A stretch of DNA of 64,000 nucleotides, from the NCBI GenBank assembly GCA_050692055.1, contig JBOGTC010000013.1, forward strand, positions 2,202-66,201. Reading direction: 5' to 3'. The position numbers were made by a program, and so were the translations under genes. Shown here piece after piece: positions 13,444 to 54,860 of this stretch. Origin of the DNA: Candidatus Limnocylindria bacterium. Lineage in GTDB: Bacteria; Chloroflexota; Limnocylindria; QHBO01. Within the stretch, counting starts at the first letter, position 1. Every line of letters starts with the position of its first letter. The notes under the pieces were generated by a model that saw only the letters and a list, made by a program, of their open reading frames with translations, searched no databases and was not told the origin of the DNA.

Positions 13444-13467
13444 GGGACGCCAGGCGACGTATCCACT

Positions 13468-13497
13468 GATCGGGGCGGCAGCAATGCCGCCCCGATC
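13468..13497 (+). terminator. Candidate intrinsic terminator hairpin after P1
   Basis: Perfect 13-bp stem gatcggggcggca / tgccgccccgatc with loop gcaa, 25 nt after the stop. No obvious T-tract. Confidence 0.45.
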
Positions 13498-13556
13498 ACT
13501 ATCCTGCGGTGGGACTCGAGCTGGAGGATCAATGTGCGCGGACGCTCCCGCGGCTG

Positions 13557-17859: not shown

Positions 17860-18471
17860 ATGCGCGACGAACGGTGGCTCTATCTGGGACTCAAGCGCGT
17901 GATTGACCTGCTCGTCGCGGTCACGCTGCTGCCAGTGATCATCCTGGTCCTGGCAGCCTGCGCGCTCGCGGTACGCCTGGACTCCCCCGGACCGATCCTC
18001 TTCACGCAGCTGCGCACCGGCCGCCACGGCAGCCGCTTCCGCATGTACAAGTTCCGCACCATGGTTCAGAACGCGGAAGAGCTCAAGGCGAGCCTTGCCC
18101 ACCTCAGCATCGTGCCGCCGCCTGACTTCAAGGTCATCGACGACCCACGCATCACGCCGGTCGGCCGCTTCCTGCGCAAGACCAGCCTCGATGAGCTGCC
18201 GCAGATCATCAATGTGCTGCGTGCCGAGATGAGCCTGGTCGGTCCTCGACCGACATCGTTCGAGCCATCCACCTACGAGCTGTGGCATACCCAGCGCCTC
18301 GAAGTGCCGCCGGGCATCACGGGCCTGTGGCAGGTGAAGGGCCGGAACGAGTCGACCTTCGACGAGCGGTTGCGCCTCGACATCGAGTATCTCAACCGGA
18401 TGTCGGTGGGGCTCGACATGCGCATCCTCTTCCTCACCGTGGCCTCGGTCGTTCGCCGCTCCGGGGCCTGA
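17860..18471 (+). CDS. Priming phosphoglycosyl transferase (small bacterial sugar transferase, WbaP/PglC type)
   Basis: Has [10 protein letters not shown]...[27 protein letters not shown]...[38 protein letters not shown]...PGITGLWQV. Confidence 0.9.
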
Positions 18472-19169: not shown

Positions 19170-20117
19170 TCAGCGACCATCGCGGCCGGACCGCGGCTGA
19201 GCCTGCCACTCCACCTGGCTGCGGAGACCTTCGCCCGGCAGCACCAGCGGCCGATAGCCGAAGGCGGACTCCGCCTTGCTCGTATCGGCCCATGTCCGGC
19301 GCTGATCGCCGGGGCGCGGTGGCGCATGCGAGACGACCGGCTCCTCGCCGCACGCCGCGGCGATGAGCTCGAGCGCGTCGCAGAGGGTGATCTCCTGGCC
19401 GCCGCCGATGTTGTAGATCCCCCCCACCTCGGCGCCTTCGAGCGCGTCGATCGTGCCGCGGACGCAGTCCGACACGTAGGTGTTGGACCGTGACTGCCGT
19501 CCATCCCCAAAGATCACGATGGGCTGCTGATCGAGCAGCGCCTCGATGAAGATGTGGAACGCCATGTCCGGGCGCTGCCGCGGGCCGTAGATCGAGAAGT
19601 AGCGCAGGACTGCCGCGGGGAATCCAAAGGCCTGGACGTGCGCCAGGACCAGGTGCTCGGCCGCCAGCTTGCTGATGCCATACGGCGACACGGGGACGAG
19701 CGGCTGTGCTTCATCGCCCACGGCGTTCTCGCCGTATACCGACGAGGTGGACGCCTGGATGAAGCGGCGGACGCCCGCGCGGCGCGCGGCGTCGATCAGG
19801 CGCTGCAGGCCGAGGACGTTGCAGCCAACATACCCGTCCAGATCCGTCCAGCTGCGCATCAGCCCGGCCATGGCCGCCTCGTTGATGACGGCCTCGACGC
19901 CGTCGAGGGCCTCGTCCAGCGGATCGGAGCGCAGATCGACCTCCGCGAACTCGAAGCGTGGATCTCCGCGCAGCTCGGCCAGGTTCTGCTCCTTGATCGA
20001 CCGCGGATAGTAGTCGACGAAGGAATCGATACCGCGGACGTCGTGTCCCTCGGCCAGCAGACCCTGGCACAGGTGCGAGCCCACGAAGCCCGCCGCGCCG
20101 GTGACCAGGATTCGCAT
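19170..20117 (-). CDS. NAD-dependent nucleotide-sugar epimerase/dehydratase (UDP-glucuronate / UDP-hexose 4-epimerase-like SDR)
   Basis: Has MRILVTGAAGFVGSHL, STSSVYG, and YGISKLAAE (YxxxK). Its start overlaps the stop of P3 by 1 nt. Confidence 0.85.
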   Translation of the reverse strand: MRILVTGAAGFVGSHLCQGLLAEGHDVRGIDSFVDYYPRSIKEQNLAELRGDPRFEFAEVDLRSDPLDEALDGVEAVINEAAMAGLMRSWTDLDGYVGCNVLGLQRLIDAARRAGVRRFIQASTSSVYGENAVGDEAQPLVPVSPYGISKLAAEHLVLAHVQAFGFPAAVLRYFSIYGPRQRPDMAFHIFIEALLDQQPIVIFGDGRQSRSNTYVSDCVRGTIDALEGAEVGGIYNIGGGQEITLCDALELIAAACGEEPVVSHAPPRPGDQRRTWADTSKAESAFGYRPLVLPGEGLRSQVEWQAQPRSGRDGR

Positions 20118-22129
20118 CAGCCGGACTGCCGCTGAATGCGGACATTGTCGAACAGCATCTGCACGCTGGCCCCCTCAGGCGTGCGGAGGCAGACGCGATC
20201 CACCTCGTGCGGCCCAGGATCGCGCCACTGCGCGCCGGCGACGCTGAAGATCAGGTCGCCGGTGTCCAGCCGGACGACGTCCCAGGCGTAGGTGCCGGTC
20301 GCAAAGTCGACGGTGGCCGTTGAGCGATACCAGACTCCGGCCTGGTACAGCGTCCCGCTGTTCACCTCGCGCGAGCCATCCATGTACATGAGCGTCCCGC
20401 GGTCGCTGAGCTCGACGTTCGCGGTCTCCGCCCTCACGTCGCGGACCGAGGTGATCGTGGCCTCATCGGTCCCAAGGCCGGTCATGAGCACGTCGACCTG
20501 CACGACCAACGTGCCGGCCGAGACCGGCGGAATCCTCCGGCAGGCCTCGACGCGCTGGCCGGCCGCGCCGGAGATCGCGTAGCCGACCATGCCCGATCCG
20601 TCGGCGGCGACCGTCACGCCGGCCGTGCCCTGCGCCTCCAGGGCGTTGTGCGACCACCCGTCCGGAAGGCCCGCGGCGACGGACCACGGATCGAACGTCT
20701 CGTGGACCAGGTCGGTCGACACTCCATCAGCCGCGTCGAACTTCGCCCCGTCGCCGCGCGACGTGCCCGGTGGTACGCCGTCGAGCGACAGAGCCGCGTG
20801 GAGGTACCGCCCGGTGCTGCCATCCGCGGCCAGCACGACGAGCCCGGTGTCGCTGTTGACGTTCTGCTTGGTCGCCGTGGCGTTGTTGATGAGCGGGTCG
20901 ATGGCACTGTCGATGAGGGGCGTTCCATGGCCCGCGGGGAAGCTGATCCGATCCAGCGAGGTCACCTTGTAGTTGATGGTGCCGCCGCCGCCGGGCTGGG
21001 TGGCGAAGATGTAGAGATCGCGGTGCTCCTCGTCGATGACCACCACGGGCCGCGTGTGCTGATCACCGACGCGTCCGTACAGATACTTGCGCCATGTCCC
21101 ATCCGGCTCCAGCACCAGGAGCATGATCTGCGGGTCATCGTGCCTCTTCACCTCGAGCGCTTCCAGCGAGGTCTTGACGGCCACGAACAGGCGACCGCTC
21201 TCGTCACCCTCGAGGGCCCTGACGCTCAGGTGGTCGTCCGCGTTCTTGAGGCCCTGGACGACGGTGCTGGTCGCGTTCCAGGCGTCGTCGGGGGCATCGT
21301 CGGGATGGGTCGCGAAGTAGACGGCATCCTCGTTCTGGTTGGTCCACACGACCCCGACCCGGCTGGCGTAGCTGATGATGGCGGACTCGTCCGCGGCGAC
21401 CATGGTGCCGTCGACCGGGGGAATGAACGGCTCCCCCCAGTGATAGTGGTCGTGCAGCGACCGATTGACGAAGACCCGGTTCTGGGCGATGTAGCTGACC
21501 CACAGCTGCTCGGTCGTGTCCTTCGCGATCGTCACCGCCACGACGCCCCCATCGCTGATGGTCACCGGAAAATCGGGATCGAGGCTGTAGCGGCCGCTCT
21601 CGGGGTCGTAGCTGAAGCGAAGGATGCGCGCGGCATGCGATGTCCGCTCTTCCTTGGGGCCTGCACTGGCCACGTAGAGGTGAGAGCCGTCCCAGAGGGC
21701 GTCGGCGTGCACCTCGGGCCGTTCGTCGATGACGACGCCGGTGTCGTGCCACTCCTGCGTCGCCCAGTCGAGACGGTGGATCCGGTACTCGCGGCCGGTG
21801 ACGTCGAGCATCGCGGCCCACCAGGCCCCATCGTTGAACCACAGCTTGCTCTGCGGCTTGTCCATGGTCGGCTCATCGACTTCGGTGGTGTCGTACCGCG
21901 GCCCGCGGTACGTCGTCGGCGTGGCTGCCGCGGGTCCCACCTCGTCCAGCGAGCGCTGACTCGCTTCCGCCTGGCCGGGAGGGCTGATCGCCGGTGACGG
22001 AGCGTCAGCGCCCGCGATGCGGCCATCGCCCAGCGTGCGGACGACCATGAAGGAGGCGACCGCGATGGCGAGGACGATGGCTACTCGGGTGAAGACTTTC
22101 AAGGCACTTACGGCAGGATGTCGGGACAC
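20117..22129 (-). CDS. Secreted/anchored protein P3: BNR/sialidase-like N-terminal domain plus a C-terminal LamG-like jelly roll
   Basis: N-terminal TM/signal VAIVLAIAVASFMVV. Family motif TMDKPQSKLWFNDGAWWA...EYRIHRL...LYVAS...DESAIISYASRVGVVWTNQNED. The C-terminal ~190 aa ends MLFDNVRIQRQSG. Confidence 0.8.
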   Translation of the reverse strand: MSRHPAVSALKVFTRVAIVLAIAVASFMVVRTLGDGRIAGADAPSPAISPPGQAEASQRSLDEVGPAAATPTTYRGPRYDTTEVDEPTMDKPQSKLWFNDGAWWAAMLDVTGREYRIHRLDWATQEWHDTGVVIDERPEVHADALWDGSHLYVASAGPKEERTSHAARILRFSYDPESGRYSLDPDFPVTISDGGVVAVTIAKDTTEQLWVSYIAQNRVFVNRSLHDHYHWGEPFIPPVDGTMVAADESAIISYASRVGVVWTNQNEDAVYFATHPDDAPDDAWNATSTVVQGLKNADDHLSVRALEGDESGRLFVAVKTSLEALEVKRHDDPQIMLLVLEPDGTWRKYLYGRVGDQHTRPVVVIDEEHRDLYIFATQPGGGGTINYKVTSLDRISFPAGHGTPLIDSAIDPLINNATATKQNVNSDTGLVVLAADGSTGRYLHAALSLDGVPPGTSRGDGAKFDAADGVSTDLVHETFDPWSVAAGLPDGWSHNALEAQGTAGVTVAADGSGMVGYAISGAAGQRVEACRRIPPVSAGTLVVQVDVLMTGLGTDEATITSVRDVRAETANVELSDRGTLMYMDGSREVNSGTLYQAGVWYRSTATVDFATGTYAWDVVRLDTGDLIFSVAGAQWRDPGPHEVDRVCLRTPEGASVQMLFDNVRIQRQSG

Positions 22130-22207
22130 AGGAACCCCCCACCGTGGAGCCTCTTGATCCCTCCAGCCCGCAGTATAGGTGCAGAACGCATCTTGGGTGC
22201 AGGCGGA

Positions 22208-23185
22208 CTATCGAGTTGCCTCACCCCAGATTGAAAGGTCCAGCCCCGTGAGCTGTGCGAGCCTTCGGTTGTCCGGGGCAAACTCGCTGTCCAGGCGGGC
22301 CAGGACGGCGCGTTCCTCGTCGGACCGGTCGCCGGAGCCGACTCGGAAGTTGAGAGCCGCGTACGGCGCTTTGAGCGCCCTGTGCGCGCGCTTCTTGAAC
22401 CGGCCAGCGGGGATCATGCGACCAAGGGACAGCCTGAGCCGGTGGAGGCGCGAAGAACGCGTGCGAACCGTGGGCTTCTTCCGCAGGAATGGATACGAAT
22501 CGTAGTAGCTGGGCTCGAGACCGAGATGCGTGGCAAGGTCACGCATGAACCGTCGCTCGTCCCTGATCATGTGCTCGAAGAGGAGCAGCTGGATCCGGCC
22601 AGGTGGGAAATGCTCCAGCCAACGCTCGAGGTAGTCCACGTAGCGGCTCTGCGTGATCGCCCATCTCGTCAGATCAGTGAGCCGGCCCTGGTCCTCGCGA
22701 GCCGCAAGCTCAACGAACTGCGCGAACGTGATCGAGCGGTCGAGCGTTGCCAGGTTGTTGCGAGCGTACTCGTAGAACGAGTAGACCCGTTCGGACGGCT
22801 TGCGCAGCAGGAAGATCACCCGCGGCTTGGACTCGAGCTGCGCGAGCATCTCGCGCGCGGTCTCCTGGTAGATGTAGCCCGGAGTGCCCTCGAGAATCAC
22901 CCTGCTGGAACTGACATCGCAGTGCTCGAAGTAGGACGCATAGGCGCCGAGGCCATGATCCGCATAGTTGCTCCGCGCGTTGAAGGTCGGCCACTCCCGA
23001 TCCATGAAGAAGTACGTCTCCTTGACGCTCGACGCGCAGACGTCAGGGTGGTCGGCGAGCCAGGCGAACACGGACGTCGTCCCGCACTTTGGCGCTCCGG
23101 CGATCACGACGTTCGGCAGCAGTAGCCGAGCTGCCTTCCGGGCGATCAGTGCATCAGCGCGGATCACAGGCATGCGCGCATCCAC
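22208..23185 (-). CDS. Sulfotransferase (PAPS-dependent family) 1
   Basis: 5'-PSB motif VVIAGAPKCGTTSVFAWL. LLRKPSERVYSFYEY is a 3'-PB-like region. Alternative start at 23173. Confidence 0.8.
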   Translation of the reverse strand: MDARMPVIRADALIARKAARLLLPNVVIAGAPKCGTTSVFAWLADHPDVCASSVKETYFFMDREWPTFNARSNYADHGLGAYASYFEHCDVSSSRVILEGTPGYIYQETAREMLAQLESKPRVIFLLRKPSERVYSFYEYARNNLATLDRSITFAQFVELAAREDQGRLTDLTRWAITQSRYVDYLERWLEHFPPGRIQLLLFEHMIRDERRFMRDLATHLGLEPSYYDSYPFLRKKPTVRTRSSRLHRLRLSLGRMIPAGRFKKRAHRALKAPYAALNFRVGSGDRSDEERAVLARLDSEFAPDNRRLAQLTGLDLSIWGEATR

Positions 23186-23297
23186 ACGACGATCTCCATC
23201 CGCCCGATGAGCGAGAAATGCTTCAAGGGATCCTCGGAGTCAATAACATGACTCGGCCACCAATCTCACGCTGGTCATTGTGGGAGTCCCACAGGGT

Positions 23298-24149
23298 ATG
23301 CGCAGGACACTTCTTCGCTCGATTCGCCGTGCGGCGAAGGAGGCGATCGACACGGCAGGTGCCCTTACGAGTCGGGCGCGGACGGATCCTGACTTCATCA
23401 TCATTGGCGCTCAGAAGGCCGGCACGACGTCGCTCTACCGCTACCTGTGCAGCCATCCTCGAATCAAGTCCGCGCGGCGAAAGGAGATCCACTACTTCGA
23501 CTGGAACTATGGTAGAGGCAGGGCCTGGTACCGAGGTCATTTTCCATGGTCCTGGGGGTCGACGGTCGGCAGGGGTCGCGAGTGGCTGACGGGCGAAGCG
23601 TCTCCATACTATCTCCATCACCCCCTGGTCCCTGGACGCGTGGCGCACGATCTCCCAGGGGCCAAGCTCATCGTCCTTCTCCGCAATCCCGTGGATCGGG
23701 CCTTTTCGCATTACCAGCACGAGAGGGTTCGCGGACACGAGCCGCTTTCCTTCGAGGACGCGATCGCGGCGGAAGCCGATCGCCTGGCGACGGAGTTCGG
23801 AAGGTTGAGCACCGATCCTTCCTACCGGAGCCGCAACGACGAGAGGCACTCGTATCTCGCTCGAGGCGTGTACGCCGATCAGCTCACTCGATGGTGGTCC
23901 GAGATCCACCGAGATCGCTTCATCATCCTTCGGACCGAGGACCTGGCAGGCGACCCCCGCGCCACGCTGAACAGAGTCCTGGGATTCCTGGGCCTGGAGG
24001 CAGTCGACCGCGCGCGCTTTCCGCGCTTCCTTGAGGGAAGATACGGGGCAGCGATGGAGCCGCGCACGAGAGCAAGGCTGGTCGAATACTTCCATCCGCA
24101 CAACGAGCGCCTCGAAACTCTCCTGGGTACGCGTCAAGACTGGGATTGA
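23298..24149 (+). CDS. Sulfotransferase (PAPS-dependent family) 2
   Basis: Has FIIIGAQKAGTTSLYRYL and LLRNPVDRAFSHYQH. ATG at 23298 chosen (the ORF opens at 23280). Confidence 0.8.
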   Translation: MRRTLLRSIRRAAKEAIDTAGALTSRARTDPDFIIIGAQKAGTTSLYRYLCSHPRIKSARRKEIHYFDWNYGRGRAWYRGHFPWSWGSTVGRGREWLTGEASPYYLHHPLVPGRVAHDLPGAKLIVLLRNPVDRAFSHYQHERVRGHEPLSFEDAIAAEADRLATEFGRLSTDPSYRSRNDERHSYLARGVYADQLTRWWSEIHRDRFIILRTEDLAGDPRATLNRVLGFLGLEAVDRARFPRFLEGRYGAAMEPRTRARLVEYFHPHNERLETLLGTRQDWD

Positions 24150-24166
24150 CTCTCGGTGCTGGAATC

Positions 24167-25282
24167 TCAATGGTGCGACGCGAGCAAGTCCGCATAGACC
24201 CGTTCGGTCGCCTCGATGAAGGCTGCCATCGAATAACGCTCCGCGACCAGTCGGCGGCCGCGCTCACCCATGGCGGCTGTGACGCGCGGCTGCCCCAAGA
24301 GGTGCTTGATTGCATCCGCCAGGCGCTCGCTGTCGGCGGGCGGGACGAGCAGGCCGTGCTCGCCCGTCGTCACGATCTCCGGAATCCCGCCAACGCTGCT
24401 GGCCACCACCGGGCGACCATGCACGAGTGACTCGAGCAGGACGATGCCGAACTCCTCCTGCAATGACGGCAAGACGGTGAATTGGCAGAGCGCGATGAGA
24501 TCGGAGACGTCATTCCTCGCTCCCAGGAACTTGACGTGCCCTGACAGTCCGAGCTGCCGGGTTCGCTCCTCAAGCTCGGCCCGATCCTCGCCATCCCCGA
24601 TGAGCAGGAGGCAGACGTCAGGGTGGGTGCTCGTGACCGAAGCCAGGGCCTCGAGGAGATACCGCTGGCCCTTTCTCTTCCGCAGGCGGGCGACACACCC
24701 GATGAGCGGCGTCTCGGAGCCGATCCCGAGCTCGTCGAGCAACGCCCTGCGCTGTACCGCGGTGAGCTCAACAGGCATCTCCATCCCCATGGGGATCACT
24801 CGTATCCGCCCCGGATCGACGCCGTACCTCTCAATGGCATGTCGCTCGACGGCCTGGCTGAGCACGATGAGGCGCTCGCCCATGCCTGCCGCAGTGAGTC
24901 GACGCTGATCGTTGCGGATCTCATGGATCGTGGATACCAGGCGCGTCCCGGTCAGCCGCGCCACCAGCCTGCCGATGAGTGCCGCGTAGCGGTGGTGCGA
25001 GTTGATGAGCTGGATGCGCTCCCGACGCACCAGCCGGGCCAGCCGAATGGATGTCGGCACCAGATCCACGACGTTCGGAGTGGAGCGCGACGGCCCGAGG
25101 TAGGGTGAGAGGCGGAAGTCGGTACGCTGCTCCGCGACATCGTGGATCCTTGCATCCCACGCACCGCCGCCGCTGACCACCATCACGCGATGACCGCGCT
25201 CCACCAGCCCCTGGCTCAGGCGGACGATGTACTCAGTCGCTCCACCCACCGGCAGGGATGGGCGAATCTGCAGGATGTTCAT
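24167..25282 (-). CDS. Glycosyltransferase family 4 (GT-B)
   Basis: Has MNILQIRPSLPVGGATEY... and the C-terminal EEFGIVLLESLVHGRPVVASSVGGIPEIV (E-x7-E region). Confidence 0.85.
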   Translation of the reverse strand: MNILQIRPSLPVGGATEYIVRLSQGLVERGHRVMVVSGGGAWDARIHDVAEQRTDFRLSPYLGPSRSTPNVVDLVPTSIRLARLVRRERIQLINSHHRYAALIGRLVARLTGTRLVSTIHEIRNDQRRLTAAGMGERLIVLSQAVERHAIERYGVDPGRIRVIPMGMEMPVELTAVQRRALLDELGIGSETPLIGCVARLRKRKGQRYLLEALASVTSTHPDVCLLLIGDGEDRAELEERTRQLGLSGHVKFLGARNDVSDLIALCQFTVLPSLQEEFGIVLLESLVHGRPVVASSVGGIPEIVTTGEHGLLVPPADSERLADAIKHLLGQPRVTAAMGERGRRLVAERYSMAAFIEATERVYADLLASHH

Positions 25283-25360
25283 TGCGTCCTTCGCAGGATC
25301 GTCCCGGCGGCGCTGGCAGGTACGGTCGCCGTCACTGGCGACCGCGGACAGCTTGCCGGG

Positions 25361-26299
25361 TTATGCCCAGGCGGACAGGTCCAGACCCGTCTGCTCCGCG
25401 AGCCGCCGATTGAGCGGTGCGAACTCCGCGTCCAGCTCCTTCAGCACCCGGACATCATCGTCTGACCTGGCTTGCTGCCCGCGTCGTACGTTCATCGCAG
25501 TGTATGGCCGGGTCAGTGCCTTGCGAAGGGCACGCTTCAGTGAGCTCCTCGGCAAGAGCCGCCCCATCCTCAGTCTGGTTCGCTGCAGCATCTGGAGGCG
25601 GACGTTGTAGGTCTGCTTCTTTCGGGGGAAGTGGTAATCCGCGTAGTACCCCTGGTCGATGCCAAGCGCCGCAGCCACGCTGCGCATGAAAGCCGACTGA
25701 TCTGCCTGCAGAGCCTCGAAGAGGAAGAGATGCAGGTTCTGCGGCGGAAACCTGGACAGCCAGTCGCCCAGGTAGTCACTGTACCGACTGAACTGGATCC
25801 CGTACTCGGACCACGCCTCGCGTTCCACTCGCTCCACCCCGCCTGGAACCGACTGAAATGAACCTGCGCCGGTCCGAAGCATCGACACGAAGTCTCGGAA
25901 TGTCGTGGCCGGGCTGATGATCGCCATGTTGTTGCGGGCGTACTGGTAGAAGGAATACGTGCGTTCCGAGGGCTTGCGAAGCACGAAGACGACCTGGGGT
26001 GCCGGGTCCAGGCTGGAGAGGACCTCCAGGGCGGTTCTACGGTACAGGTACTCGGGCGTGGCTTCGAGGATGACCTGGGCCCGGGCAGGATCGCAATGCG
26101 CGAAGAATGATTCGTAGCCGGCGAGTCCGTGATCCGCGTAGTTACACGCAGGATTGAATAGCGGTGTTCCGCGATCGACCAGGTAGTGGGTCTCCTTCAC
26201 GCTGGCGCCGCATACCTGCGGATGGTCGTTCAGCCACGCAAACAGCGAGGTCGTGCCCGACTTCGGTGCTCCAGCGATCACGACGTTTGGCAGAGTCAT
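25361..26299 (-). CDS. Sulfotransferase (PAPS-dependent family) 3, close paralog of 22208-23185
   Basis: Has MTLPNVVIAGAPKSGTTSLFAWLNDHPQVCGASVKETHY and VLRKPSERTYSFYQYARNN. Confidence 0.85.
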   Translation of the reverse strand: MTLPNVVIAGAPKSGTTSLFAWLNDHPQVCGASVKETHYLVDRGTPLFNPACNYADHGLAGYESFFAHCDPARAQVILEATPEYLYRRTALEVLSSLDPAPQVVFVLRKPSERTYSFYQYARNNMAIISPATTFRDFVSMLRTGAGSFQSVPGGVERVEREAWSEYGIQFSRYSDYLGDWLSRFPPQNLHLFLFEALQADQSAFMRSVAAALGIDQGYYADYHFPRKKQTYNVRLQMLQRTRLRMGRLLPRSSLKRALRKALTRPYTAMNVRRGQQARSDDDVRVLKELDAEFAPLNRRLAEQTGLDLSAWA

Positions 26300-26315: not shown

Positions 26316-28394
26316 TCACGTTCCGCCCTGGGTCACCACCAGCTGCGGCGGCTGGCTGCCCTCGCTGCTGCTGTACCACGTTGCGGGCTTGGCGGTCCCG
26401 ACCAGGACGAAGCTGTAGGTGCCGTCGGCGCCGATGCTGCTGGTCACGTCGAGCTCGACCCAGATCCCGCCGGTCGTGGCGCCGGCGCTGTCGAGCACGG
26501 CCCCGCTGCTGCCCGGGCGCGTGTTCCAGGTGATGGTGGCCTCATCCCAGTCGTTGCTGGCCGCGGCATAGAGGTCACCGCCGCCGGGGCTGGCCTGGAC
26601 CACGAACAGGCGCAGCGTGGCGCTGCTGACCGTGTCGGTCAGTCCGGCGACGCTGAACTTGAGGTAGGAGTCGGAGTTGTTGTCCGGATTGCCATCGCTG
26701 AAGGCGCGCAGGATGGTGTCGTTGCCGTAGTTGGCGTTGGGCGCGGGGCCGCGCACGGTGGCGTCGTCGGTGGGGGTGAAGATCAGCGGCTCGCCGCCAC
26801 CACTGCCGTCGGTGACGGTGATGGTGACGGTGGCGATGTTGCTGTCGTCGGTCCCGTCGTTGGCGGTGTAGGTGAAGGCGTAGTCGCCGCTGAAGCCCGG
26901 CTCGGGGGTGTAGCTGAAGGAGCCATCGGCGTTGAGCGTCACGTCGTCGCCCGGATCGCTGACCTCGGTCGCGGTCAGCGGGTCGCCGTCGGCGTCGGTG
27001 TCGTTGGCCAGCACGCCGGGAGCGGCCACGTTGAGGGTCGTGTCCTGCGGGGTGCTGTAGCTGTCGTCGGCCGCCACCGGCGCGCTGTTGGGCGGCGGCT
27101 CGCCACCTGGATCCTCCACGCCGTTGCAGCCGGCAGTCGTCAGCGCGTTGTGGTGGTGCCAGTAGCGCTCTGCACTGCCGGCCGCCATGACCACCAGCCC
27201 CGTCGTGCTGTTGACGTTCTGCTTGGCGGAGGTGGCGTTGTTCATGGTGTGGGACGCATCGCGCAGGACCGGCTCACCCAGCCCGGCGGGGAAGCTCATG
27301 CCGTTGCGCGCGGCGTCCATGTTGGTGGTCTTGCAGTAGATGGTCTGCCCCACGCTGTTCGACGTCGGCGAGGTGGCGAACAGGTGGACCAGCCGGTTCG
27401 TCGTGTCGAGCATGACGATGGGCCGGGTGTGATCGTCCTGCTCGGTCCCGAACACCGCGGCATCCCACCAGCCCTCGCTGCGGTCGTAGCGCAGCAGGAC
27501 GACGAGCGGGTCCGGGTTGTTGGAGCGGCTGGTCTTGATGGCGGCGAAGACGCGGTCGCTGTTGGGATCGGCCTGCAGCGACTTGAGGTTGATGTGGTCA
27601 TCGGCGTCACCGCCGGCGCTGCCGTAGGCGACGCTGGCCACCTCCCAGGTCGTGTCGGCGCCGGCATCGAGATGCACGGAGAAGTACATCCGGCTGTCGG
27701 GCTGGTGGCTCCACATGACGCCGATCTTGTTGCCGTCGAAGGCGACGACCGAGGCGATGTCGTCGCTGTTGAGGCCGGTCGCGCCGGTGACCGGCAGCGT
27801 GAACTCGGCGCCCCAGGTCGCATCGTCGGTGGTCGAGCGATTGACCTTGACCTCGCCGCCGGCCTCCCAGGCCGCCCACAGCTGTCCGGTCGAGTCACGG
27901 TCGATGGTCAGCGTCTCGGGGTTGGTACCGGTGATCTGGGCCAGGTGGTTCGCCGTCCCGGCGCCGGCGTCGTTGGTGTAGGTGTCGGTGTCGGCGTTGT
28001 AGCTGAAGCGGAACAGGCGGCCGCCGCCGCTGCCACGGGAGGCCACGTACAGCTTGCCCGTGGCCTGGTGCCAGAGCGTGTCGGCCCGCGAGCCCGCTCG
28101 GGTGTCGATCGGCACGCCGGTGTCGGTCCACTGCTGGGTCGTCGCATTGAGACGATGGATGCGGTGCGCTGCGCCGGCAGGGCTGTACATGACCGCCCAC
28201 CAGTGCCCGTCGTTCCACCACAGCTTGCTCTCCGGCTTCTCGCCGGTCGCGGCGCCGCCAACGCCGGTATTGGAAGGACCCTCCCAGCCGAAGTCGCCGG
28301 TGTCCGCCGCGACGGCGGCGGGCAGCATGTTGAGCGCGACGACCAGCGCCAGGACAAAGACCGGCCGGCACCGCCGGAACAGCGAAGGGCACAT
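26316..28394 (-). CDS. Secreted protein P4: BNR/sialidase-like N-terminal domain, cadherin-like/Ig-like domain, DNRLRE (CBM96-like) C-terminal domain
   Basis: ATG at 28394 gives the signal-like MCPSLFRRCRPVFVLALVVALNMLPAAVAA. Family motif ATGEKPESKLWWNDGHWWA...HRIHRL...LYVAS...DDIASVVAFDGNKIGVMWSHQ. Cadherin-like APVAADDSYST...VLANDTDADGDPL...FTYTANDG. DNRLRE-like YGNDTILRAF...SYLKFSVAGL...ATLRLFVV...WDEATITWNTRP. Confidence 0.8.
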   Translation of the reverse strand: MCPSLFRRCRPVFVLALVVALNMLPAAVAADTGDFGWEGPSNTGVGGAATGEKPESKLWWNDGHWWAVMYSPAGAAHRIHRLNATTQQWTDTGVPIDTRAGSRADTLWHQATGKLYVASRGSGGGRLFRFSYNADTDTYTNDAGAGTANHLAQITGTNPETLTIDRDSTGQLWAAWEAGGEVKVNRSTTDDATWGAEFTLPVTGATGLNSDDIASVVAFDGNKIGVMWSHQPDSRMYFSVHLDAGADTTWEVASVAYGSAGGDADDHINLKSLQADPNSDRVFAAIKTSRSNNPDPLVVLLRYDRSEGWWDAAVFGTEQDDHTRPIVMLDTTNRLVHLFATSPTSNSVGQTIYCKTTNMDAARNGMSFPAGLGEPVLRDASHTMNNATSAKQNVNSTTGLVVMAAGSAERYWHHHNALTTAGCNGVEDPGGEPPPNSAPVAADDSYSTPQDTTLNVAAPGVLANDTDADGDPLTATEVSDPGDDVTLNADGSFSYTPEPGFSGDYAFTYTANDGTDDSNIATVTITVTDGSGGGEPLIFTPTDDATVRGPAPNANYGNDTILRAFSDGNPDNNSDSYLKFSVAGLTDTVSSATLRLFVVQASPGGGDLYAAASNDWDEATITWNTRPGSSGAVLDSAGATTGGIWVELDVTSSIGADGTYSFVLVGTAKPATWYSSSEGSQPPQLVVTQGGT

Positions 28395-28597: not shown

Positions 28598-30157
28598 ATG
28601 AATCGGTCCGTCGAATCCGAGGAGTCGGCGACCCAACGCCCCAGGCCGGAGGCCAGAACGACCAGGCGGCAGATTCGCGGATCGAGCCTTCTGCTGATCG
28701 GGCGCGGCCTCTCAATGGCGGTCAATTTCGGCGTCCAGATCCTGATCGTCCGCTACTTCTCGAAGCCGGAGTTCGGCGCCTACGCCTACGCCCTCTCCGT
28801 GGTCAATGTGGCTTACACGTTCGTGACCTTCGGTCTGGACCGCGCGGTGACGCGTTTCGTGCCGATCTACGAGGAGCAGGGAGCCTACGCCAAGCTCTTC
28901 GGCACGCTCGCCCTCGCATTCGGCGCGGTCCTCTCGCTGGGAACCCTGGCGCTCATCGCCATCTATGGGCTGCGGGGCTGGATCGAGGATGCCCTCATCG
29001 GCGACCCGCTCGTCCTCAGCGTCCTGGTCGTCCTGATCCTGATGGCGCCCATACGGGCGCTGGGCGACGTCTTCCTGGGGTTGATGGCCGTCTTCGCCAG
29101 CCCGCGCGCGATCTTCTTCCGACGTCACATCCTTCCACCGCTGCTGCGGGCGGTCCTGGTGGGCGTGCTGATTGCCGGCCAGTTCGACGTCGTCTTCTTT
29201 GCCGCCGGTACCGTCGTCACGTCCATCATCGGCTCGCTGGCGTATGTCGTCGTCCTGGCCAACGTGATGCGACGGCGCGGTCTCTTCGGCCGCTTTGATC
29301 GAGCCAGCTTACGGATTCCGTTTCGCGAGGTGCTCGGCTTCACGGTTCCGCTGCTGACGAGCGACCTCGTGTTCGTCGTCATGCACGCCTCGGACGCGTT
29401 GCTGCTCGGGTATTTTCACAATGCGCAGGCGGTGGCCGAGTTCCGGGTTGTGCAGCCGGCCGCCGACCTCAACGTCCTGGTGATGGGCAGCTTCACGCTT
29501 CTCTTCACGCCAATGGCCGCGCGCCTCTTCGCTCGACACGATCACGCTGGGATCCATGAGCTGTACTGGCGTACTGCAGCGTGGATGGCCATCCTGTCCC
29601 TTCCGATCTTTCTGCTGACCTTCTCACTTGCTGGCGATGTTGTCGTGGCTCTGTACGGGGATCCGTATCAGGCGTCGGGTGTGTACCTCACGCTGCTGGC
29701 GCTGGGCTACTACTTCAATGCCGCGCTGGGGTTCAACGGCCTGACGCTCAAGGTCTTCGGAAAAGTACGCTACGTCGTCATCATCAACCTGGCGGTGGCG
29801 GTCCTCAACGTGGCGCTCAACCTTCTCCTGATTCCGTCGTTCGGGGCGCTCGGAGCAGCCATCGGCACCCTGATCGCCATGGTGGTCCACAATTTCCTCA
29901 AGCAGGCCGGGCTTCAGCTCGTTGCCGGACTGTCCATCTTCGACCCCGAGTATGCACGCCTGTATGCGCTCATCGCCCTCAGCTCGGTTGGGCTACTCGC
30001 GATCCAGCTGCTGCTCCACCCACCCCTCTACATCGGCTTCGTGCTCGCGGCTGGCATATCGCTGGCCGTCACCGTGCTGAACCGGAAGCTGCTCGACGTG
30101 CCGCGGACATTCCCCGAGCTGCTTCGCATCCCGCTGGTGCGCAGGATCTTCGGCTGA
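28598..30157 (+). CDS. Polysaccharide flippase (Wzx, MOP/PST superfamily)
   Basis: About 12-14 hydrophobic segments. The N-terminus GSSLLLIGRGLSMAVNFGVQILIVRYFSKPEFGAYA is typical of PST flippases. Confidence 0.8.
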   Translation: MNRSVESEESATQRPRPEARTTRRQIRGSSLLLIGRGLSMAVNFGVQILIVRYFSKPEFGAYAYALSVVNVAYTFVTFGLDRAVTRFVPIYEEQGAYAKLFGTLALAFGAVLSLGTLALIAIYGLRGWIEDALIGDPLVLSVLVVLILMAPIRALGDVFLGLMAVFASPRAIFFRRHILPPLLRAVLVGVLIAGQFDVVFFAAGTVVTSIIGSLAYVVVLANVMRRRGLFGRFDRASLRIPFREVLGFTVPLLTSDLVFVVMHASDALLLGYFHNAQAVAEFRVVQPAADLNVLVMGSFTLLFTPMAARLFARHDHAGIHELYWRTAAWMAILSLPIFLLTFSLAGDVVVALYGDPYQASGVYLTLLALGYYFNAALGFNGLTLKVFGKVRYVVIINLAVAVLNVALNLLLIPSFGALGAAIGTLIAMVVHNFLKQAGLQLVAGLSIFDPEYARLYALIALSSVGLLAIQLLLHPPLYIGFVLAAGISLAVTVLNRKLLDVPRTFPELLRIPLVRRIFG

Positions 30158-30159: not shown

Positions 30160-31353
30160 ATGCGCATCCTGTACATCACGGACGCCTTTCCGTGGCCGCT
30201 CACCAGCGGCCACCTTCGGCACTATCACCTGATCAGGGGCTTGTCCCGGCGTCACTCGGTGAGCCTGCTGTCCATTGTTGGCGCTGACTTCGATCACCGT
30301 CGCAGCGATGCGCTGCGACCCTTCGCCGAGCGCATCCATACGTTCCCGACGACGGGACGCCGGCCGCCGACCCAGCTGCGCTCCGCCCTGCCATCTCGTG
30401 CCGTGGCGGCCGCGGAGCAGCTGGCACGCGAGGCGCTGGAGCTCACCAAGGACGGCGGCTTCGACGTCTGCCTCCTGACCGGCAGGCGCGCCTACCCGGC
30501 GCTCTCACGCCTGGCGGACATCCCGTTGGTGGCGGACGTGTGCGACGCAACCTCGAGCCGGATGCGCGGCGCGCTGAGCCACGCCGGCGGCTCCAGCAGG
30601 CCGCTGCTCTATCTGCGGTACCTCTGGGCAAGGCATGCCGAGCGTCAGGTGATCGCACGGGCAGAGCATCTCGTCTTCGCATCGCCGCGGGACCGCGATG
30701 CGCTGGTCGATCGCAGGACGCGAGGCCACGCCGCGATCGTGCCGAACGGAGTCGACGACGACTATTGGCGTCGGAGCACGACGCGGCTGGGCAGTCACGA
30801 GGTCGTCTTCACGGGCGCGATGAGCTACCCACCGAATGCGGATGCGGCCGTCTACCTGATCCGCGAGATCATGCCCCGGGTTCAACGAGAGGTGCCCGAG
30901 GCGAGCCTGTCGATCGTTGGCCGCGATCCGACACCCGAGCTGGTGGCTGCCGGCAGCCGCCATGGTGCCACCGTGACCGGCTACGTCGACGACATGCGCC
31001 CTCACCTGGAGCGCGCGGCCGTCTTCGCGGCGCCGCTGCGCTTCGGTTCAGGAATCCAGAACAAGCTCCTCGAGGCGATGGCGATGGAGGTGCCGGTGGT
31101 GGCATCACCGCTGGCGGGCGAAGGGCTCACGACCGAGGACGGGGCGTTGCCACCCATCGGCCTGGCCGAGGATGCCGGAGAGTTCGCCCGGCAGCTCGTG
31201 ACCCATCTGCGCAGCGATCAGCCCGAACCGAGCCGGCTCGGGCGCGCGTTCGTGCAGCAGCACTTCAGCTGGCCCAGCAGCGTCGAGCGGCTCGAAGCTG
31301 TTCTCAACCGCGCCGGAGCACCAACCGAGCAGCGTTCCAGCAGTCAGCGATGA
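30160..31353 (+). CDS. Glycosyltransferase family 4 (stp1-like)
   Basis: ATG at 30160. Has MRILYITDAFPWPLTSGHLRHYHLIRGL... and SGIQNKLLEAMAMEVPVVASPLAGEGL. Confidence 0.85.
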   Translation: MRILYITDAFPWPLTSGHLRHYHLIRGLSRRHSVSLLSIVGADFDHRRSDALRPFAERIHTFPTTGRRPPTQLRSALPSRAVAAAEQLAREALELTKDGGFDVCLLTGRRAYPALSRLADIPLVADVCDATSSRMRGALSHAGGSSRPLLYLRYLWARHAERQVIARAEHLVFASPRDRDALVDRRTRGHAAIVPNGVDDDYWRRSTTRLGSHEVVFTGAMSYPPNADAAVYLIREIMPRVQREVPEASLSIVGRDPTPELVAAGSRHGATVTGYVDDMRPHLERAAVFAAPLRFGSGIQNKLLEAMAMEVPVVASPLAGEGLTTEDGALPPIGLAEDAGEFARQLVTHLRSDQPEPSRLGRAFVQQHFSWPSSVERLEAVLNRAGAPTEQRSSSQR

Positions 31354-32488: not shown

Positions 32489-32507
32489 AGGCTGTCGAGT
32501 CGCGACG

Positions 32508-39741: not shown

Positions 39742-39772
39742 TGGCCCCCGCGGATTGGGCAGTGACCTGTCG

Positions 39773-47467: not shown

Positions 47468-47477
47468 ACCCGTGCCG

Positions 47478-54230: not shown

Positions 54231-54860
54231 CTAGGCCGGCGGCAGGTACCCGAGCTCCTCGAGCCTCGCGACCACCCTGGCGGCGCTCTCATCAGGTGTC
54301 TCGCGGCCGTCCGAGTAGCAGGTCACCTCGGCGTTCAGCGGCGCCTCGTACGGGTCGCTGACGCCGGTGAAGTTGGCGAGCTCTCCGGCCAGCGCCTTCT
54401 TGTAGAGGCCCTTGACGTCGCGCTCGGCGAGCACGTCGATGGGCGCCTCGACGTACACCTCCACGAAGCGTCCGATGTTGGCGCGCACCTCGTCGCGGAT
54501 CTCGCGATACGGGCTGATGGCGGCGGCGATGGCGACGGTCTCGTTGCGCGTGAGGAGCTCGCATACCCATCCGATGCGCCGGATGTTGGTATCGCGATCC
54601 TCCTTGCTGAAGCCGAGCCCCTTCGAGAGGTGCGTGCGCACGACGTCGCCGTCGAGCACCTCCACTCGAAGGCCGCGGGCGCGCAGCTCACGCTCCACGA
54701 TCTCGCTGATGGTGCTCTTGCCGGCCCCGGACAGGCCGGTGAACCAGATGGTGAAGCCGATGCTGGCATCGGCCGCGCGCGGCGTGCCGGCGTCGCCATG
54801 CGTGGAGGCGGCCGGGGCCTGCCCCATGGCGGCGGTCGTGTCGGGCGTATCGGTGGTCAT
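54231..54860 (-). CDS. cysC: Adenylylsulfate (APS) kinase
   Basis: ATG at 54860. Has [15 protein letters not shown] (P-loop), [21 protein letters not shown], and [23 protein letters not shown]. Confidence 0.9.

What the first reader, a model, noticed from the sequence alone, without database searches (positions are those of the whole stretch)
22208..26299. Three PAPS-type sulfotransferases clustered with a GT4 between two propeller paralogs
22208-23185, 23298-24149 and 25361-26299 each carry the PKxGTT 5'-phosphosulfate-binding loop and a downstream (L/V)LR(K/N)P..R..S.Y region. Two of them are close paralogs (VVIAGAPK(C/S)GTTS(V/L)FAWL). Three sulfotransferases in one glycan cluster imply multiple distinct sulfation positions. 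Sulfated envelope glycans are uncommon in bacteria outside a few lineages such as rhizobial Nod factors/LPS, mycobacterial sulfolipids and some cyanobacterial or marine EPS.
Basis: partly seen in the sequence, partly recalled or inferred. Interest (0 to 1): 0.7.

Follow-up and report, generated by a model that had tools for sequence, protein, structure and literature searches.

The report
Three sulfotransferases in a glycan cluster
An uncultured freshwater/soil Chloroflexota bacterium carries three sulfate-adding enzymes inside a sugar-polymer gene cluster, next to genes that make the sulfate donor, so it probably makes a sulfated surface polysaccharide. That product is rarely shown chemically in bacteria, but the genes turn out to be common.

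Summary
ORFs 22208-23173(-), 23298-24149(+) and 25361-26299(-) all pass Pfam Sulfotransfer_1/_3. Their closest solved structures are a bacterial sulfotransferase (3rnl) and the animal heparan-sulfate 3-O- and N-sulfotransferases. All three keep the 5'-PSB lysine, the catalytic Glu and the 3'-PB Arg/Ser.

Corrections:
- ST2 reads QKAGTT, not PKxGTT, and lies on the opposite strand.
- ST1 and ST3 are 50% identical and are not recent duplicates.

The three genes sit in a Wzx/Wzy/Wzc-type polysaccharide cluster of about 35 kb in a Candidatus Limnocylindria MAG.

Related loci in Gaiellaceae and other phyla repeat the pattern of sulfotransferases with GT, Wzx, Wzy and propeller genes. Of 80 related loci, 24 hold 2-3 sulfotransferases.

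The most likely mechanism is cytoplasmic, PAPS-dependent sulfation of the lipid-linked repeat unit before export. This is a new member of a known kind (synechan xss, Vibrio CPS, Actinoplanes wps-1). The family is very large, so interest is modest.

The parts
22208..23173 (-). ST1. A heparan-sulfate-type (Sulfotransfer_1/3) PAPS sulfotransferase of 321 aa, predicted cytoplasmic.
   Evidence: Pfam 55.3 and 44.5 bits. PDB 3rnl E 8e-18 and 3-OST-1 E 8e-15. Motifs PKCGTT, KETYF and LRKPSERVYSFY. No membrane segment. Gene call.
23298..24149 (+). ST2. The most 3-OST-like of the three, 283 aa, on the opposite strand.
   Evidence: Pfam 76.1 and 68.7 bits. Full-length alignment to human 3-OST-1, E 8e-24, with KEIHYFDW aligned to NEVHFFDW. 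27% identical to XssA of synechan, E 8e-21. A 52%-identical orthologue sits in the syntenic contig L084.
24167..25282 (-). GT4 glycosyltransferase between ST2 and ST3.
   Evidence: Glycos_transf_1 140 bits and Glyco_transf_4 82 bits.
25361..26299 (-). ST3. A paralog of ST1 (50% identity), 312 aa.
   Evidence: Pfam 49.6 and 41.9 bits. Comparison with ST1. Across 20 family members K13, K35-E36, R108, R113 and S116 are invariant. The exact protein is annotated 'sulfotransferase domain-containing protein [Candidatus Limnocylindria bacterium]'.
20117..22129 (-). Propeller paralog 1. Has an N-terminal membrane or signal segment, a beta-propeller of about 380 aa and an unassigned C-terminal domain.
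   Evidence: No Pfam, NCBIfam or PDB sequence hit. AF2 model pLDDT 91. Foldseek matches to sialidase-like, GH145 and lectin propellers at TM about 0.6. Membrane segment at residues 5-36.
26316..28394 (-). Propeller paralog 2, carrying Big_9/cadherin-like and CBM96 domains.
   Evidence: CBM96 118 bits and Big_9 79 bits. 39% identical to paralog 1. Orthologues of 43% identity lie next to sulfotransferases in Gaiellaceae loci.
28715..30157 (+). Wzx-type flippase.
   Evidence: Polysacc_synt 62.8 bits. Multiple membrane segments.
30160..31353 (+). GT4-type glycosyltransferase.
   Evidence: Glyco_trans_1_4 89.6 bits. Gene call.
15860..17320 (+). UDP-glucose 6-dehydrogenase-like enzyme, which would supply a uronic acid.
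   Evidence: Three UDPG_MGDP_dh domains. NDP-sugar dehydrogenase family 372 bits against a cut-off of 190; the nearest named families are TuaD and AglM.
17860..18471 (+). Initiating polyprenyl-phosphate sugar-phosphate transferase.
   Evidence: Bac_transf 215.7 bits. EPS_sugtrans 263 bits.
19170..20117 (-). NAD-dependent nucleotide-sugar epimerase/dehydratase.
   Evidence: Epimerase 195 bits.
41531..43129 (-). Wzy_C-domain polytopic membrane protein, either a polymerase or an O-ligase.
   Evidence: Wzy_C 55.3 bits. At least 10 membrane segments. PEP_O_lig_1 85 bits, below its cut-off.
43126..45174 (-). GT2 glycosyltransferase with membrane segments, 62% identical to its partner in the Gaiellaceae sulfotransferase loci.
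47478..48956 (-). Wzz/Wzc-like co-polymerase with a tyrosine-autokinase domain.
   Evidence: Wzz 24 bits. eps_fam BY-kinase 70 bits and polys_exp_MPA1 63 bits.
49045..50085 (-). PF01522 polysaccharide N-deacetylase with no evident signal peptide. The start codon is uncertain.
   Evidence: Polysacc_deac_1 53.8 bits. PgaB-like N-terminus. Sequence. 50% orthologues in loci L003 and L007.
54231..54860 (-). APS kinase CysC, which makes PAPS. The start codon is uncertain (54827-54890).
   Evidence: APS_kinase 201.9 bits. NF002059 275 bits against a cut-off of 244.
54887..56062 (-). ATP sulfurylase Sat.
   Evidence: ATP-sulfurylase 324.8 bits and PUA_2 188 bits. NF003166 562 bits against a cut-off of 387.
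56162..57931 (-). CitMHS/DASS-type anion permease with two TrkA_C domains, a candidate sulfate importer. The start codon is uncertain.
   Evidence: CitMHS 247 bits, Na_sulph_symp 45 bits and TrkA_C 74 bits. DASS 110 bits, below its cut-off.
58026..59030 (+). DHH/DHHA1 phosphoesterase, a candidate pAp (3'-phosphoadenosine 5'-phosphate) phosphatase. The start codon is uncertain.
   Evidence: DHH 53 bits and DHHA1 38 bits. NrnA model 89 bits against a cut-off of 350, so it is not an equivalog.

Best explanation
The three genes encode soluble, cytoplasmic, PAPS-dependent carbohydrate sulfotransferases of the heparan-sulfate 3-OST/NST-like branch of Sulfotransfer_1. They belong to a Wzx/Wzy/Wzc-type polysaccharide pathway in a Candidatus Limnocylindria (Chloroflexota) genome.

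Proposed sequence of events:
1. Sulfate enters through the adjacent anion permease.
2. Sat and CysC convert it to PAPS.
3. The phosphoglycosyl transferase starts a repeat unit on polyprenyl phosphate. GT4 and GT2 enzymes extend it, and it includes a uronic acid supplied by the UDP-glucose dehydrogenase.
4. ST1, ST2 and ST3 each transfer sulfate from PAPS to a hydroxyl group, or possibly to a free amine, of that lipid-linked oligosaccharide on the cytoplasmic face. A Glu acts as base, next to the PSB-loop Lys.
5. Wzx flips the sulfated unit, the Wzy_C protein polymerises or ligates it, and the Wzc-like protein controls chain length.
6. The pAp by-product is removed, perhaps by the DHH phosphoesterase.

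The product would be a strongly anionic, sulfated extracellular or capsular glycan. The secreted or SLH-anchored propeller proteins probably bind or trim it.

Shown here: family membership, conserved catalytic residues, cytoplasmic prediction, gene context and conservation of that context.

Inferred, not shown: the acceptor, the positions sulfated, the order of steps and the role of the propellers.
For: - Family HMMs are passed.
- The nearest solved structures are 3rnl, HS 3-OST-1/3/5 and the NDST1 N-sulfotransferase domain. ST2 aligns end to end with 3-OST-1.
- The PSB-loop Lys, the KE catalytic dyad position and the R..R..S 3'-PB motif are invariant in 20 family members and present in all three proteins.
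- No membrane segment or signal peptide is predicted.
- Neighbouring genes include Bac_transf, UDP-Glc dehydrogenase, four GT4, one GT2, Wzx, Wzy_C, a Wzc-like BY-kinase, GalE and other epimerases.
- Sat and CysC pass NCBIfam cut-offs in the same window and sit next to an anion permease.
- Sulfotransferases of this family lie among GT, Wzx and Bac_transf genes in many phyla. CysC is within 10 kb in 7 of 80 loci, and a Planctomycetota locus reads Sat-CysC-ST-ST.
- Gaiellaceae and other actinomycete loci share sulfotransferase, GT2 (62%), Wzy_C (42-46%), Wzx (48-52%), propeller (43%), deacetylase (50%) and Wzz.
- A second metagenomic contig, L084, keeps ST2 and ST3 orthologues (52% and 57%) in the same neighbourhood.
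- ST2 is 27% identical (E 8e-21) to XssA, which is genetically required for the sulfated EPS synechan (PMC8205485).
Against: - There is no biochemical or chemical evidence. The organism is known only from a MAG.
- No NCBIfam equivalog names these sulfotransferases, so the acceptor cannot be read from homology.
- Identity to any characterised enzyme is at most about 30%.
- The PAPS genes are 28 kb from ST3 and about 4 kb beyond the last clear glycan gene. They could equally serve sulfur assimilation.
- The Wzy_C protein could be a ligase or an O-oligosaccharyltransferase rather than a polymerase, so the final carrier of the glycan is open.
- The DHH protein falls far below the NrnA cut-off.
- The promoter and terminator scans found no more than chance, so operon structure is unproven.
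Confidence: 0.68

Rival explanations
1. The chemistry is the same but the destination differs. The sulfated oligosaccharide is not released as EPS or CPS. Instead the Wzy_C-domain protein, acting as an O-ligase or O-oligosaccharyltransferase, moves it onto a wall polymer or onto the SLH/propeller surface proteins. The result would be a sulfated S-layer or wall glycoconjugate.
For: - Two SLH-domain propeller proteins (11242-13443 and 13509-15497) sit at the edge of the cluster, and two more propeller paralogs flank the sulfotransferases.
- Wzy_C (PF04932) also covers ligases. The best NCBIfam match is a 'putative O-glycosylation ligase', though below its cut-off.
- No second obvious Wzy was found among the unassigned ORFs.
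Against: - A Wzc-like co-polymerase with a tyrosine autokinase domain is present, which is typical of EPS/CPS pathways.
- The Wzy_C score for the ligase model is 85 bits against a cut-off of 188.
- Nothing marks the propeller proteins as glycosylation targets.
Confidence: 0.2
2. The three enzymes sulfate something other than the cluster's glycan, such as a lipid, a small metabolite, a peptide or a nucleotide sugar pool unrelated to the polymer. Their position in the glycan cluster would then be incidental.
For: - The Sulfotransfer_1/3 families include small-molecule and lipo-oligosaccharide enzymes.
- The cluster also holds several kinase-like genes, an ATP-grasp and a PEP-mutase-like gene of unknown role.
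- The sulfotransferase region has a lower GC content than its flanks.
Against: - The nearest structural relatives are all polysaccharide sulfotransferases.
- The sulfotransferases are interleaved with a GT4 and sit between Wzx and the initiating transferase.
- The association of sulfotransferases with GT, Wzx and Wzy genes recurs in distant lineages.
Confidence: 0.08
3. One or more of the three copies is a redundant or decaying duplicate, so three genes do not mean three sulfation sites.
For: - In Synechocystis, deletion of one of the two sulfotransferases (xssE) had little effect (PMC8205485).
- ST1 and ST3 share one fold and identical motifs.
Against: - All three are full length with intact catalytic motifs.
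- ST1 and ST3 fall in different subclades. ST3 is closer to foreign proteins (57%) than to ST1 (50%).
- ST2 and ST3 orthologues are retained together in L084.
- Trios of distinct paralog lineages recur on other contigs.
Confidence: 0.12

Closest known systems
Synechocystis sp. PCC 6803 xss cluster for the sulfated EPS synechan (XssA and XssE; PMC8205485)
   Same: Both are Wzx/Wzy/PCP-type clusters with several GTs, an initiating sugar transferase and more than one sulfotransferase. ST2 and XssA belong to the same HS-sulfotransferase-like branch (27% identity, E 8e-21). The initiating transferases are 46% identical.
   Different: It is not orthologous. ST1 and ST3 match XssA only weakly (21%), and XssE matches only at the P-loop. 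No XssQ/R/S regulators are found. Here there are three sulfotransferases and the PAPS genes are linked. The host is a Chloroflexota, not a cyanobacterium.
Vibrio sp. KMM 8419 sulfated capsular polysaccharide locus (PMC11641403)
   Same: Three sulfotransferase genes and extra PAPS-synthesis genes lie within one polysaccharide locus. The authors call this combination the hallmark of sulfated polysaccharide synthesis.
   Different: The Vibrio CPS uses an ABC-transporter (Kps) route and CysNDC. This window uses Wzx/Wzy/Wzc with a homo-oligomeric-type Sat plus a separate CysC. In Vibrio the polymer structure is chemically proven; here nothing is.
Actinoplanes missouriensis wps-1 cluster (WpsB and WpsH; PMC13390465)
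   Same: Both are in Gram-positive-type, high-GC organisms. Both are Wzx/Wzy/Wzz clusters with a heparan-sulfate-type sulfotransferase domain protein, a protein-kinase-like gene and a secreted glycan-active protein. In both, sulfation is predicted but unproven.
   Different: wps-1 has two sulfotransferases from different families, with a GH26 and a methyltransferase. Here there are three HS-type sulfotransferases and propeller proteins instead of the GH26. Sequences were not compared directly.
Animal heparan sulfate 3-O-sulfotransferases and the NDST N-sulfotransferase domain (PDB 1zrh, 3uan, 1t8u, 1nst)
   Same: The fold family is shared, with the PSB loop, the Glu base in the (K/N)E(I/V)H(Y/F)F segment and the LR(D/N/K)PxxRxxS 3'-PB motif. 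ST2 aligns over the whole 3-OST-1 catalytic domain.
   Different: The animal enzymes are Golgi type II membrane proteins that act on a finished polymer. The bacterial ones are soluble and cytoplasmic, so they must act before export. Identity is only about 25-30%, and acceptor specificity cannot be transferred.
Sulfotransferase 3rnl (solved bacterial structure; no function is stated in the entry name)
   Same: It is the best PDB match to both sulfotransferase types (E 8e-18 and 3e-24). For ST1 the alignment is full length and includes the C-terminal FAPDxxRL...DLSxW segment.
   Different: No acceptor is known for it, so it adds fold information but no functional information.

Membership tests
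PAPS-dependent sulfotransferases, Pfam Sulfotransfer_1 (PF00685) / Sulfotransfer_3 (PF13469) | Score above the curated gathering threshold. | tested here: met
   ST1 55.3 and 44.5 bits, ST2 76.1 and 68.7 bits, ST3 49.6 and 41.9 bits, against cut-offs of 22 and 27.
PAPS-dependent sulfotransferases, Pfam Sulfotransfer_1 (PF00685) / Sulfotransfer_3 (PF13469) | 5'-phosphosulfate-binding loop with a conserved Lys (xKxGTT). | tested here: met
   PKCGTT, QKAGTT and PKSGTT. The Lys is invariant in a 20-member alignment and aligns to the RKGGT loop of 3-OST-1.
PAPS-dependent sulfotransferases, Pfam Sulfotransfer_1 (PF00685) / Sulfotransfer_3 (PF13469) | 3'-phosphate-binding motif (Arg ... Ser on the strand-helix after beta-strand 3). 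| tested here: met
   LR(K/N)PxxRxxSxY is present in all three. R108, R113 and S116 are invariant. The motif aligns to LRDPSERVLS of 3-OST-1.
Heparan-sulfate 3-OST/NST-like branch (Glu as catalytic base) | An acidic base in the segment after the PSB helix, aligned with the Glu of 3-OST-1 'NEVHFFD'. Its assignment as the catalytic base comes from my own knowledge of the 3-OST-1 literature. | tested here: met
   KEIHYFDW of ST2 aligns to NEVHFFDW. KETYFF of ST1 aligns to NEVHFF. K35-E36 are invariant in the family.
Heparan-sulfate 3-OST/NST-like branch (Glu as catalytic base) | Sulfuryl transfer from PAPS to a glucosamine residue of a glycosaminoglycan. | not testable with these tools
   This needs enzyme assays. 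Identity of about 25-30% does not carry acceptor specificity.
Sulfated-polysaccharide biosynthetic gene cluster (sulfotransferases plus PAPS synthesis inside a polysaccharide locus; PMC11641403) | Sulfotransferase genes interleaved with glycan assembly and export genes. | tested here: met
   The sulfotransferases lie between Bac_transf, UGDH and an epimerase on one side and Wzx and a GT4 on the other, with a GT4 between ST2 and ST3.
Sulfated-polysaccharide biosynthetic gene cluster (sulfotransferases plus PAPS synthesis inside a polysaccharide locus; PMC11641403) | Linked PAPS-synthesis genes (ATP sulfurylase and APS kinase). | tested here: met
   Sat 562 bits (cut-off 387) and CysC 275 bits (cut-off 244) at 54231-56062. 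They lie about 4 kb beyond the last glycan-related gene, so linkage is loose.
Sulfated-polysaccharide biosynthetic gene cluster (sulfotransferases plus PAPS synthesis inside a polysaccharide locus; PMC11641403) | Sulfate ester demonstrated in the polymer. | not testable with these tools
   The organism is uncultured and known only from a MAG.
Synechan xss system | Orthologues of XssA and XssE and the XssQ/R/S regulatory set. | tested here: not met
   Only family-level similarity was found: ST2-XssA 27%, and XssE matches at the P-loop only. There is no hit to XssQ, XssR or XssS in the window.
NDST-like N-deacetylation/N-sulfation logic | An N-deacetylase that acts on the same substrate as an N-sulfotransferase. 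| tested here: inconclusive
   A PF01522 deacetylase with no evident signal peptide lies at 49045-50085. It is conserved alongside the sulfotransferase in Gaiellaceae loci. Neither its substrate nor any N- versus O-specificity of the sulfotransferases can be read from sequence.

The most novel reading that the evidence does not exclude
The cluster makes a glycosaminoglycan-like polymer: a uronic acid plus a hexosamine that is N-deacetylated in the cytoplasm and then N- and O-sulfated by three heparan-sulfate-type enzymes. The polymer may carry a further phosphonate or phosphate decoration. In this monoderm Chloroflexota, such a polyanionic glycan would be the ligand or substrate of a large, unannotated family of secreted or SLH-anchored beta-propeller proteins. 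That would be a bacterial heparin-like envelope system shared with Gaiellales.
Probability: 0.1. Interest if true: 0.7.

Novelty: new member of a known kind. Interest (0 to 1): 0.35.

Why it matters
Sulfated polysaccharides have been shown chemically in few bacteria, and recent papers still describe them as essentially cyanobacterial (PMC8205485, PMC13390465).

This locus, together with the related loci found here in Gaiellaceae, Acidobacteriota, Gemmatimonadota, Planctomycetota, Bacteroidota and Rhodobacterales, indicates that the genetic capacity is widespread in uncultured soil and freshwater lineages. It often involves two to four sulfotransferases per cluster.

For Limnocylindria, which has no cultured representative characterised for its envelope, the locus predicts a strongly anionic surface polymer. 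That would bear on metal binding, desiccation tolerance and phage or predator interactions.

It also offers a compact set of soluble bacterial carbohydrate sulfotransferases with a linked PAPS supply, which could be useful for enzymatic sulfation. It is not a new kind of system.

Tried and rejected
- **NCBIfam scan of the three sulfotransferases.** No model matched, so no curated subfamily name is available.
- **PDB sequence search with the propeller.** No hit was found. Only the fold search gave matches, at 13% identity and TM about 0.6. That is too weak to choose between a glycosidase and a lectin.
- **Promoter and terminator consensus scan over 18-31.5 kb.** Counts equalled the shuffled expectation, so it says nothing about operons.
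- **Orthology to the synechan xss cluster.** Rejected.
- **Naming the DHH protein as NrnA.** Rejected as a membership claim: 89 bits against a cut-off of 350. It is kept only as a candidate pAp phosphatase.
- **Calling 32508-33407 a true PEP mutase.** Not accepted. TIGR02320 scores 273 bits against a cut-off of 319.55, and the Ppm-specific EDKX5NS motif reads EDNLFPKRNS.
- **ST1 and ST3 as a recent tandem duplication.** Rejected.
- **Assembly artefact.** Considered, but the same gene order appears in a GenBank MAG contig and in a Logan assembly, and a diverged syntenic contig also exists. The two identical contigs may derive from the same reads.
- **Literature on Limnocylindria.** The most relevant paper does not mention sulfotransferases, sulfate or exopolysaccharide.

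Full report
**1. What is at the coordinates**

The window has about 68% G+C. In 22.2-26.3 kb there are four real genes:
- ST1, 22208-23173(-)
- ST2, 23298-24149(+)
- a GT4 glycosyltransferase, 24167-25282(-)
- ST3, 25361-26299(-)

These come, and the gene calls of the public assembly agree.

All three sulfotransferases pass both Pfam sulfotransferase models well above threshold, and the GT4 scores 140 bits. A tblastn of each sulfotransferase against the window finds exactly three copies.

ST2 is on the + strand, divergent from ST1 and convergent with the GT4.

ST1 and ST3 are 50% identical. ST1 and ST2 are 27% identical.

**2. What kind of sulfotransferase**

Against all PDB sequences, both types match best to a bacterial sulfotransferase (3rnl). 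After that come only heparan-sulfate 3-O-sulfotransferases 1, 3 and 5 and the N-sulfotransferase domain of NDST1, with E from 1e-10 to 1e-24. ST2 aligns with human 3-OST-1 from end to end.

The alignments place these residues opposite their 3-OST-1 counterparts:
- the PSB-loop Lys
- the Glu of K-E-(T/I)-(H/Y)-(Y/F), opposite the Glu of NEVHFFD
- the LR(K/N)PxxRxxS segment, opposite LRDPSERVLS

In a 20-member alignment of ST1/ST3 relatives these positions are invariant: K13, K35-E36, R108, R113 and S116.

None of the three has a hydrophobic segment, so they are predicted to be soluble and cytoplasmic. That fits the cytoplasmic location of PAPS. NCBIfam has no model for them.

**3. Organism and surroundings**

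ST3 is identical to a protein annotated 'sulfotransferase domain-containing protein' from a Candidatus Limnocylindria bacterium MAG, GCA_975322505.1.

Pfam and NCBIfam scans of the neighbours show a polysaccharide cluster of about 35 kb. It contains:
- UDP-glucose dehydrogenase-like enzyme (15860-17320)
- initiating phosphoglycosyl transferase (17860-18471)
- epimerases (19170-20117 and 36177-37163) and GalE (46445-47527)
- Wzx (28715-30157)
- GT4s (24167-25282, 30160-31353, 38542-39741 and 45174-46526)
- a membrane GT2 (43126-45174)
- a Wzy_C protein (41531-43129)
- a Wzz/Wzc-like co-polymerase with a tyrosine-kinase domain (47478-48956)
- a PF01522 deacetylase (49045-50085)

**4. The PAPS module**

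At 54.2-59.0 kb the same window encodes:
- APS kinase (202 bits Pfam; NF002059 275 bits against a cut-off of 244)
- ATP sulfurylase (325 bits Pfam; NF003166 562 bits against a cut-off of 387)
- a CitMHS/DASS anion permease with TrkA_C domains
- divergently, a DHH/DHHA1 phosphoesterase

Together they provide sulfate uptake and activation to PAPS, plus a candidate for removing the pAp by-product. The DHH protein does not reach the NrnA cut-off, so that last step is only a suggestion.

A published analysis of a chemically proven sulfated Vibrio capsule concludes that sulfotransferases together with PAPS genes in a polysaccharide locus are the hallmark of sulfated polysaccharide synthesis (PMC11641403). 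This window meets that criterion, although the PAPS genes lie about 4 kb beyond the last glycan gene and could also feed assimilation.

**5. Related loci**

- **Protein database.** The search with ST3 gave 151 relatives, nearly all unnamed metagenomic proteins. Several share one contig.
- **GTDB species genomes.** The scan found 178 relatives. The best are only 52% identical and come from Gaiellaceae and other actinomycete MAGs. Next come Planctomycetota, Longimicrobium, Pyrinomonadaceae, Deltaproteobacteria, Rhodobacterales, Bacteroidota, cyanobacteria and one archaeon. No Chloroflexota is among the best 80.
- **Neighbourhood census.** I ran tblastn with this window's proteins on the 80 GTDB loci and on the two contigs of this same locus, each extended by 10 kb on both sides. 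In the 80 GTDB loci, 24 had two or three sulfotransferases. Across all 82, the counts were GT4 in 36, Wzx in 16, initiating transferase in 13 and CysC in 7. One Planctomycetota locus reads Sat-CysC-ST-ST. These counts are lower bounds, because tblastn with single queries misses divergent GTs.
- **Four actinomycete loci (L003-L005 and L007).** These share much of the window's gene set: GT2 62%, Wzy_C 42-46%, Wzx 48-52%, propeller 43%, deacetylase 50% and Wzz.
- **Contig L084.** This metagenomic contig is syntenic (UGDH 62%, transferase 69%, epimerase 64%, propeller 44%). It keeps an ST3 orthologue (57%), an ST2 orthologue (52%) and a third, different sulfotransferase.
- **Contig L083.** Another contig has four sulfotransferases with Wzx, GTs and heptose-pathway genes.

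**6. Are three genes three functions?**

In a neighbour-joining tree ST1 groups with the Gaiellaceae sulfotransferases and ST3 with a different set. ST3 is closer to foreign proteins (57%) than to ST1 (50%). Elsewhere, trios of paralog lineages are conserved between contigs. The tree has no bootstrap support.

This argues for old, retained paralogs and therefore for different specificities. Regiospecificity remains an inference.

**7. The 'propellers'**

- The two flanking proteins share a domain of about 380 aa (39% identity).
- The same domain occurs in the two SLH proteins at 11242-15497.
- It has no Pfam, NCBIfam or PDB sequence match.
- More than 600 database relatives exist. They are fused to Big, RTX, fn3, CBM96 or laminin-G-like domains.
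- An AlphaFold model built on a 40-sequence alignment is confident, with pLDDT 91.2 and pTM 0.91.
- Foldseek places it among beta-propellers. The best matches are a putative Bacteroides neuraminidase, GH145 enzymes, a pseudaminidase and Photorhabdus lectins, at TM about 0.6 and 13% identity.

So 'propeller' is right. Whether the proteins cut or only bind the glycan is open. They carry an N-terminal hydrophobic segment and are conserved next to the sulfotransferases in the actinomycete loci.

**8. Comparison with known systems**

- **Synechan (xss).** This cluster has two sulfotransferases in a Wzx/Wzy cluster (PMC8205485). I fetched it. ST2 is 27% identical to XssA, ST3 is 21% identical, and XssE matches only at the P-loop. 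There are no XssQ/R/S homologues. The logic is the same but the clusters are not orthologous.
- **Actinoplanes wps-1.** This cluster combines a heparan-sulfate-type sulfotransferase, a second sulfotransferase, a kinase-like protein and a secreted glycosidase in a Wzx/Wzy/Wzz cluster. Sulfation there is also only predicted (PMC13390465).
- **Vibrio KMM 8419.** Three sulfotransferases plus cysNDC.
- **Family size.** ST2's family is very large: 39,681 50%-identity cluster representatives at E<=1e-3, 21,073 at E<=1e-10 and 2,833 at E<=1e-30. Many plasmid-borne copies occur in Sinorhizobium, Phaeobacter and cyanobacteria.

**9. Verdict**

The best explanation is cytoplasmic, PAPS-dependent sulfation of a lipid-linked, uronic-acid-containing repeat unit before Wzx export, giving a sulfated EPS or CPS (confidence about 0.68).

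The main rival differs only in destination: a sulfated wall or S-layer glycoconjugate.

This is a new member of a known kind. What is new:
- the host lineage; no paper in the library links Chloroflexota or Limnocylindria to sulfotransferase-bearing glycan clusters
- the three-sulfotransferase layout with a linked PAPS module
- the conserved partnership with an unannotated propeller family

Interest is modest (0.35).

Noticed in passing
window 54231-59030: A PAPS supply module lies at the far end of the glycan cluster. It comprises APS kinase, ATP sulfurylase, a CitMHS/DASS anion permease with TrkA_C domains and a divergent DHH/DHHA1 phosphoesterase (NrnA-like, but far below the cut-off). It was not part of the finding, yet it is the strongest contextual support for sulfation.
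   Followed up: yes
window 11242-13443, 13509-15497, 20117-22129, 26316-28394: Four paralogs share an unannotated beta-propeller domain of about 380 aa with no Pfam, NCBIfam or PDB sequence hit. Two are fused to SLH domains and one to Big_9 plus CBM96. More than 600 database relatives exist with many different extracellular fusion partners. A confident AF2 model (pLDDT 91) resembles sialidase-like, GH145 and lectin propellers only at fold level. This looks like a widespread uncharacterised extracellular domain family.
   Followed up: partly
window 31304-35067: A block of four genes reads: ATP-grasp-like, PEP-mutase-family protein, PGDH/VlpB-like 2-hydroxyacid dehydrogenase, P-loop kinase-like protein. 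The mutase pairing recalls the phosphonopyruvate-to-phosphonolactate branch (PMC8942020). However, the mutase scores 273 bits against a TIGR02320 cut-off of 319.55, and its Ppm motif reads EDNLFPKRNS instead of EDKX5NS. It may be a phosphonate or other C3-acid decoration of the glycan. This is unresolved.
   Followed up: partly
window 7582-8874, 35078-36100, 39635-41527, 50192-51118, 51123-52337: There is an unusual number of kinase-like genes in and around the cluster: three APH-family proteins, one AAA_33 protein, and one with a GWAKGGKTE P-loop that matches no family. The Actinoplanes wps-1 cluster also has a protein-kinase-like gene. Their role is unknown; glycan phosphorylation is one possibility.
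   Followed up: no
window 22000-26000: G+C drops to 0.63-0.65, against about 0.68 in the flanks. Third-position GC of the sulfotransferases is 0.72-0.82, against 0.85-0.89 in neighbouring genes. The nearest ST1 relatives are in Gaiellaceae (Actinomycetota). This hints at horizontal acquisition of the sulfotransferase/GT4 segment.
   Followed up: partly
window 49045-50085: A PgaB/IcaB-type (PF01522) N-deacetylase has no evident signal peptide and is conserved (50% identity) beside the sulfotransferase, propeller and Wzz genes in actinomycete loci L003 and L007. A cytoplasmic deacetylase together with NST-like sulfotransferases would allow N-sulfation, as in animal NDST. This is speculative.
   Followed up: partly
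L083:1420-10918; L006:5996-10891; L084:2109-4900: Other metagenomic and MAG loci carry arrays of two to four sulfotransferases of this family. L083 has four, together with Wzx, GTs and heptose-pathway genes. L006 (Planctomycetota) reads Sat-CysC-ST-ST. L084 has three in a cluster syntenic with this window.
   Followed up: partly
window 52447-53976: A 509-aa protein with an N-terminal hydrophobic segment, a Pro/Thr-rich linker and only a weak Ig-like domain hit lies between the glycan cluster and the PAPS genes. Its function is unknown.
   Followed up: no
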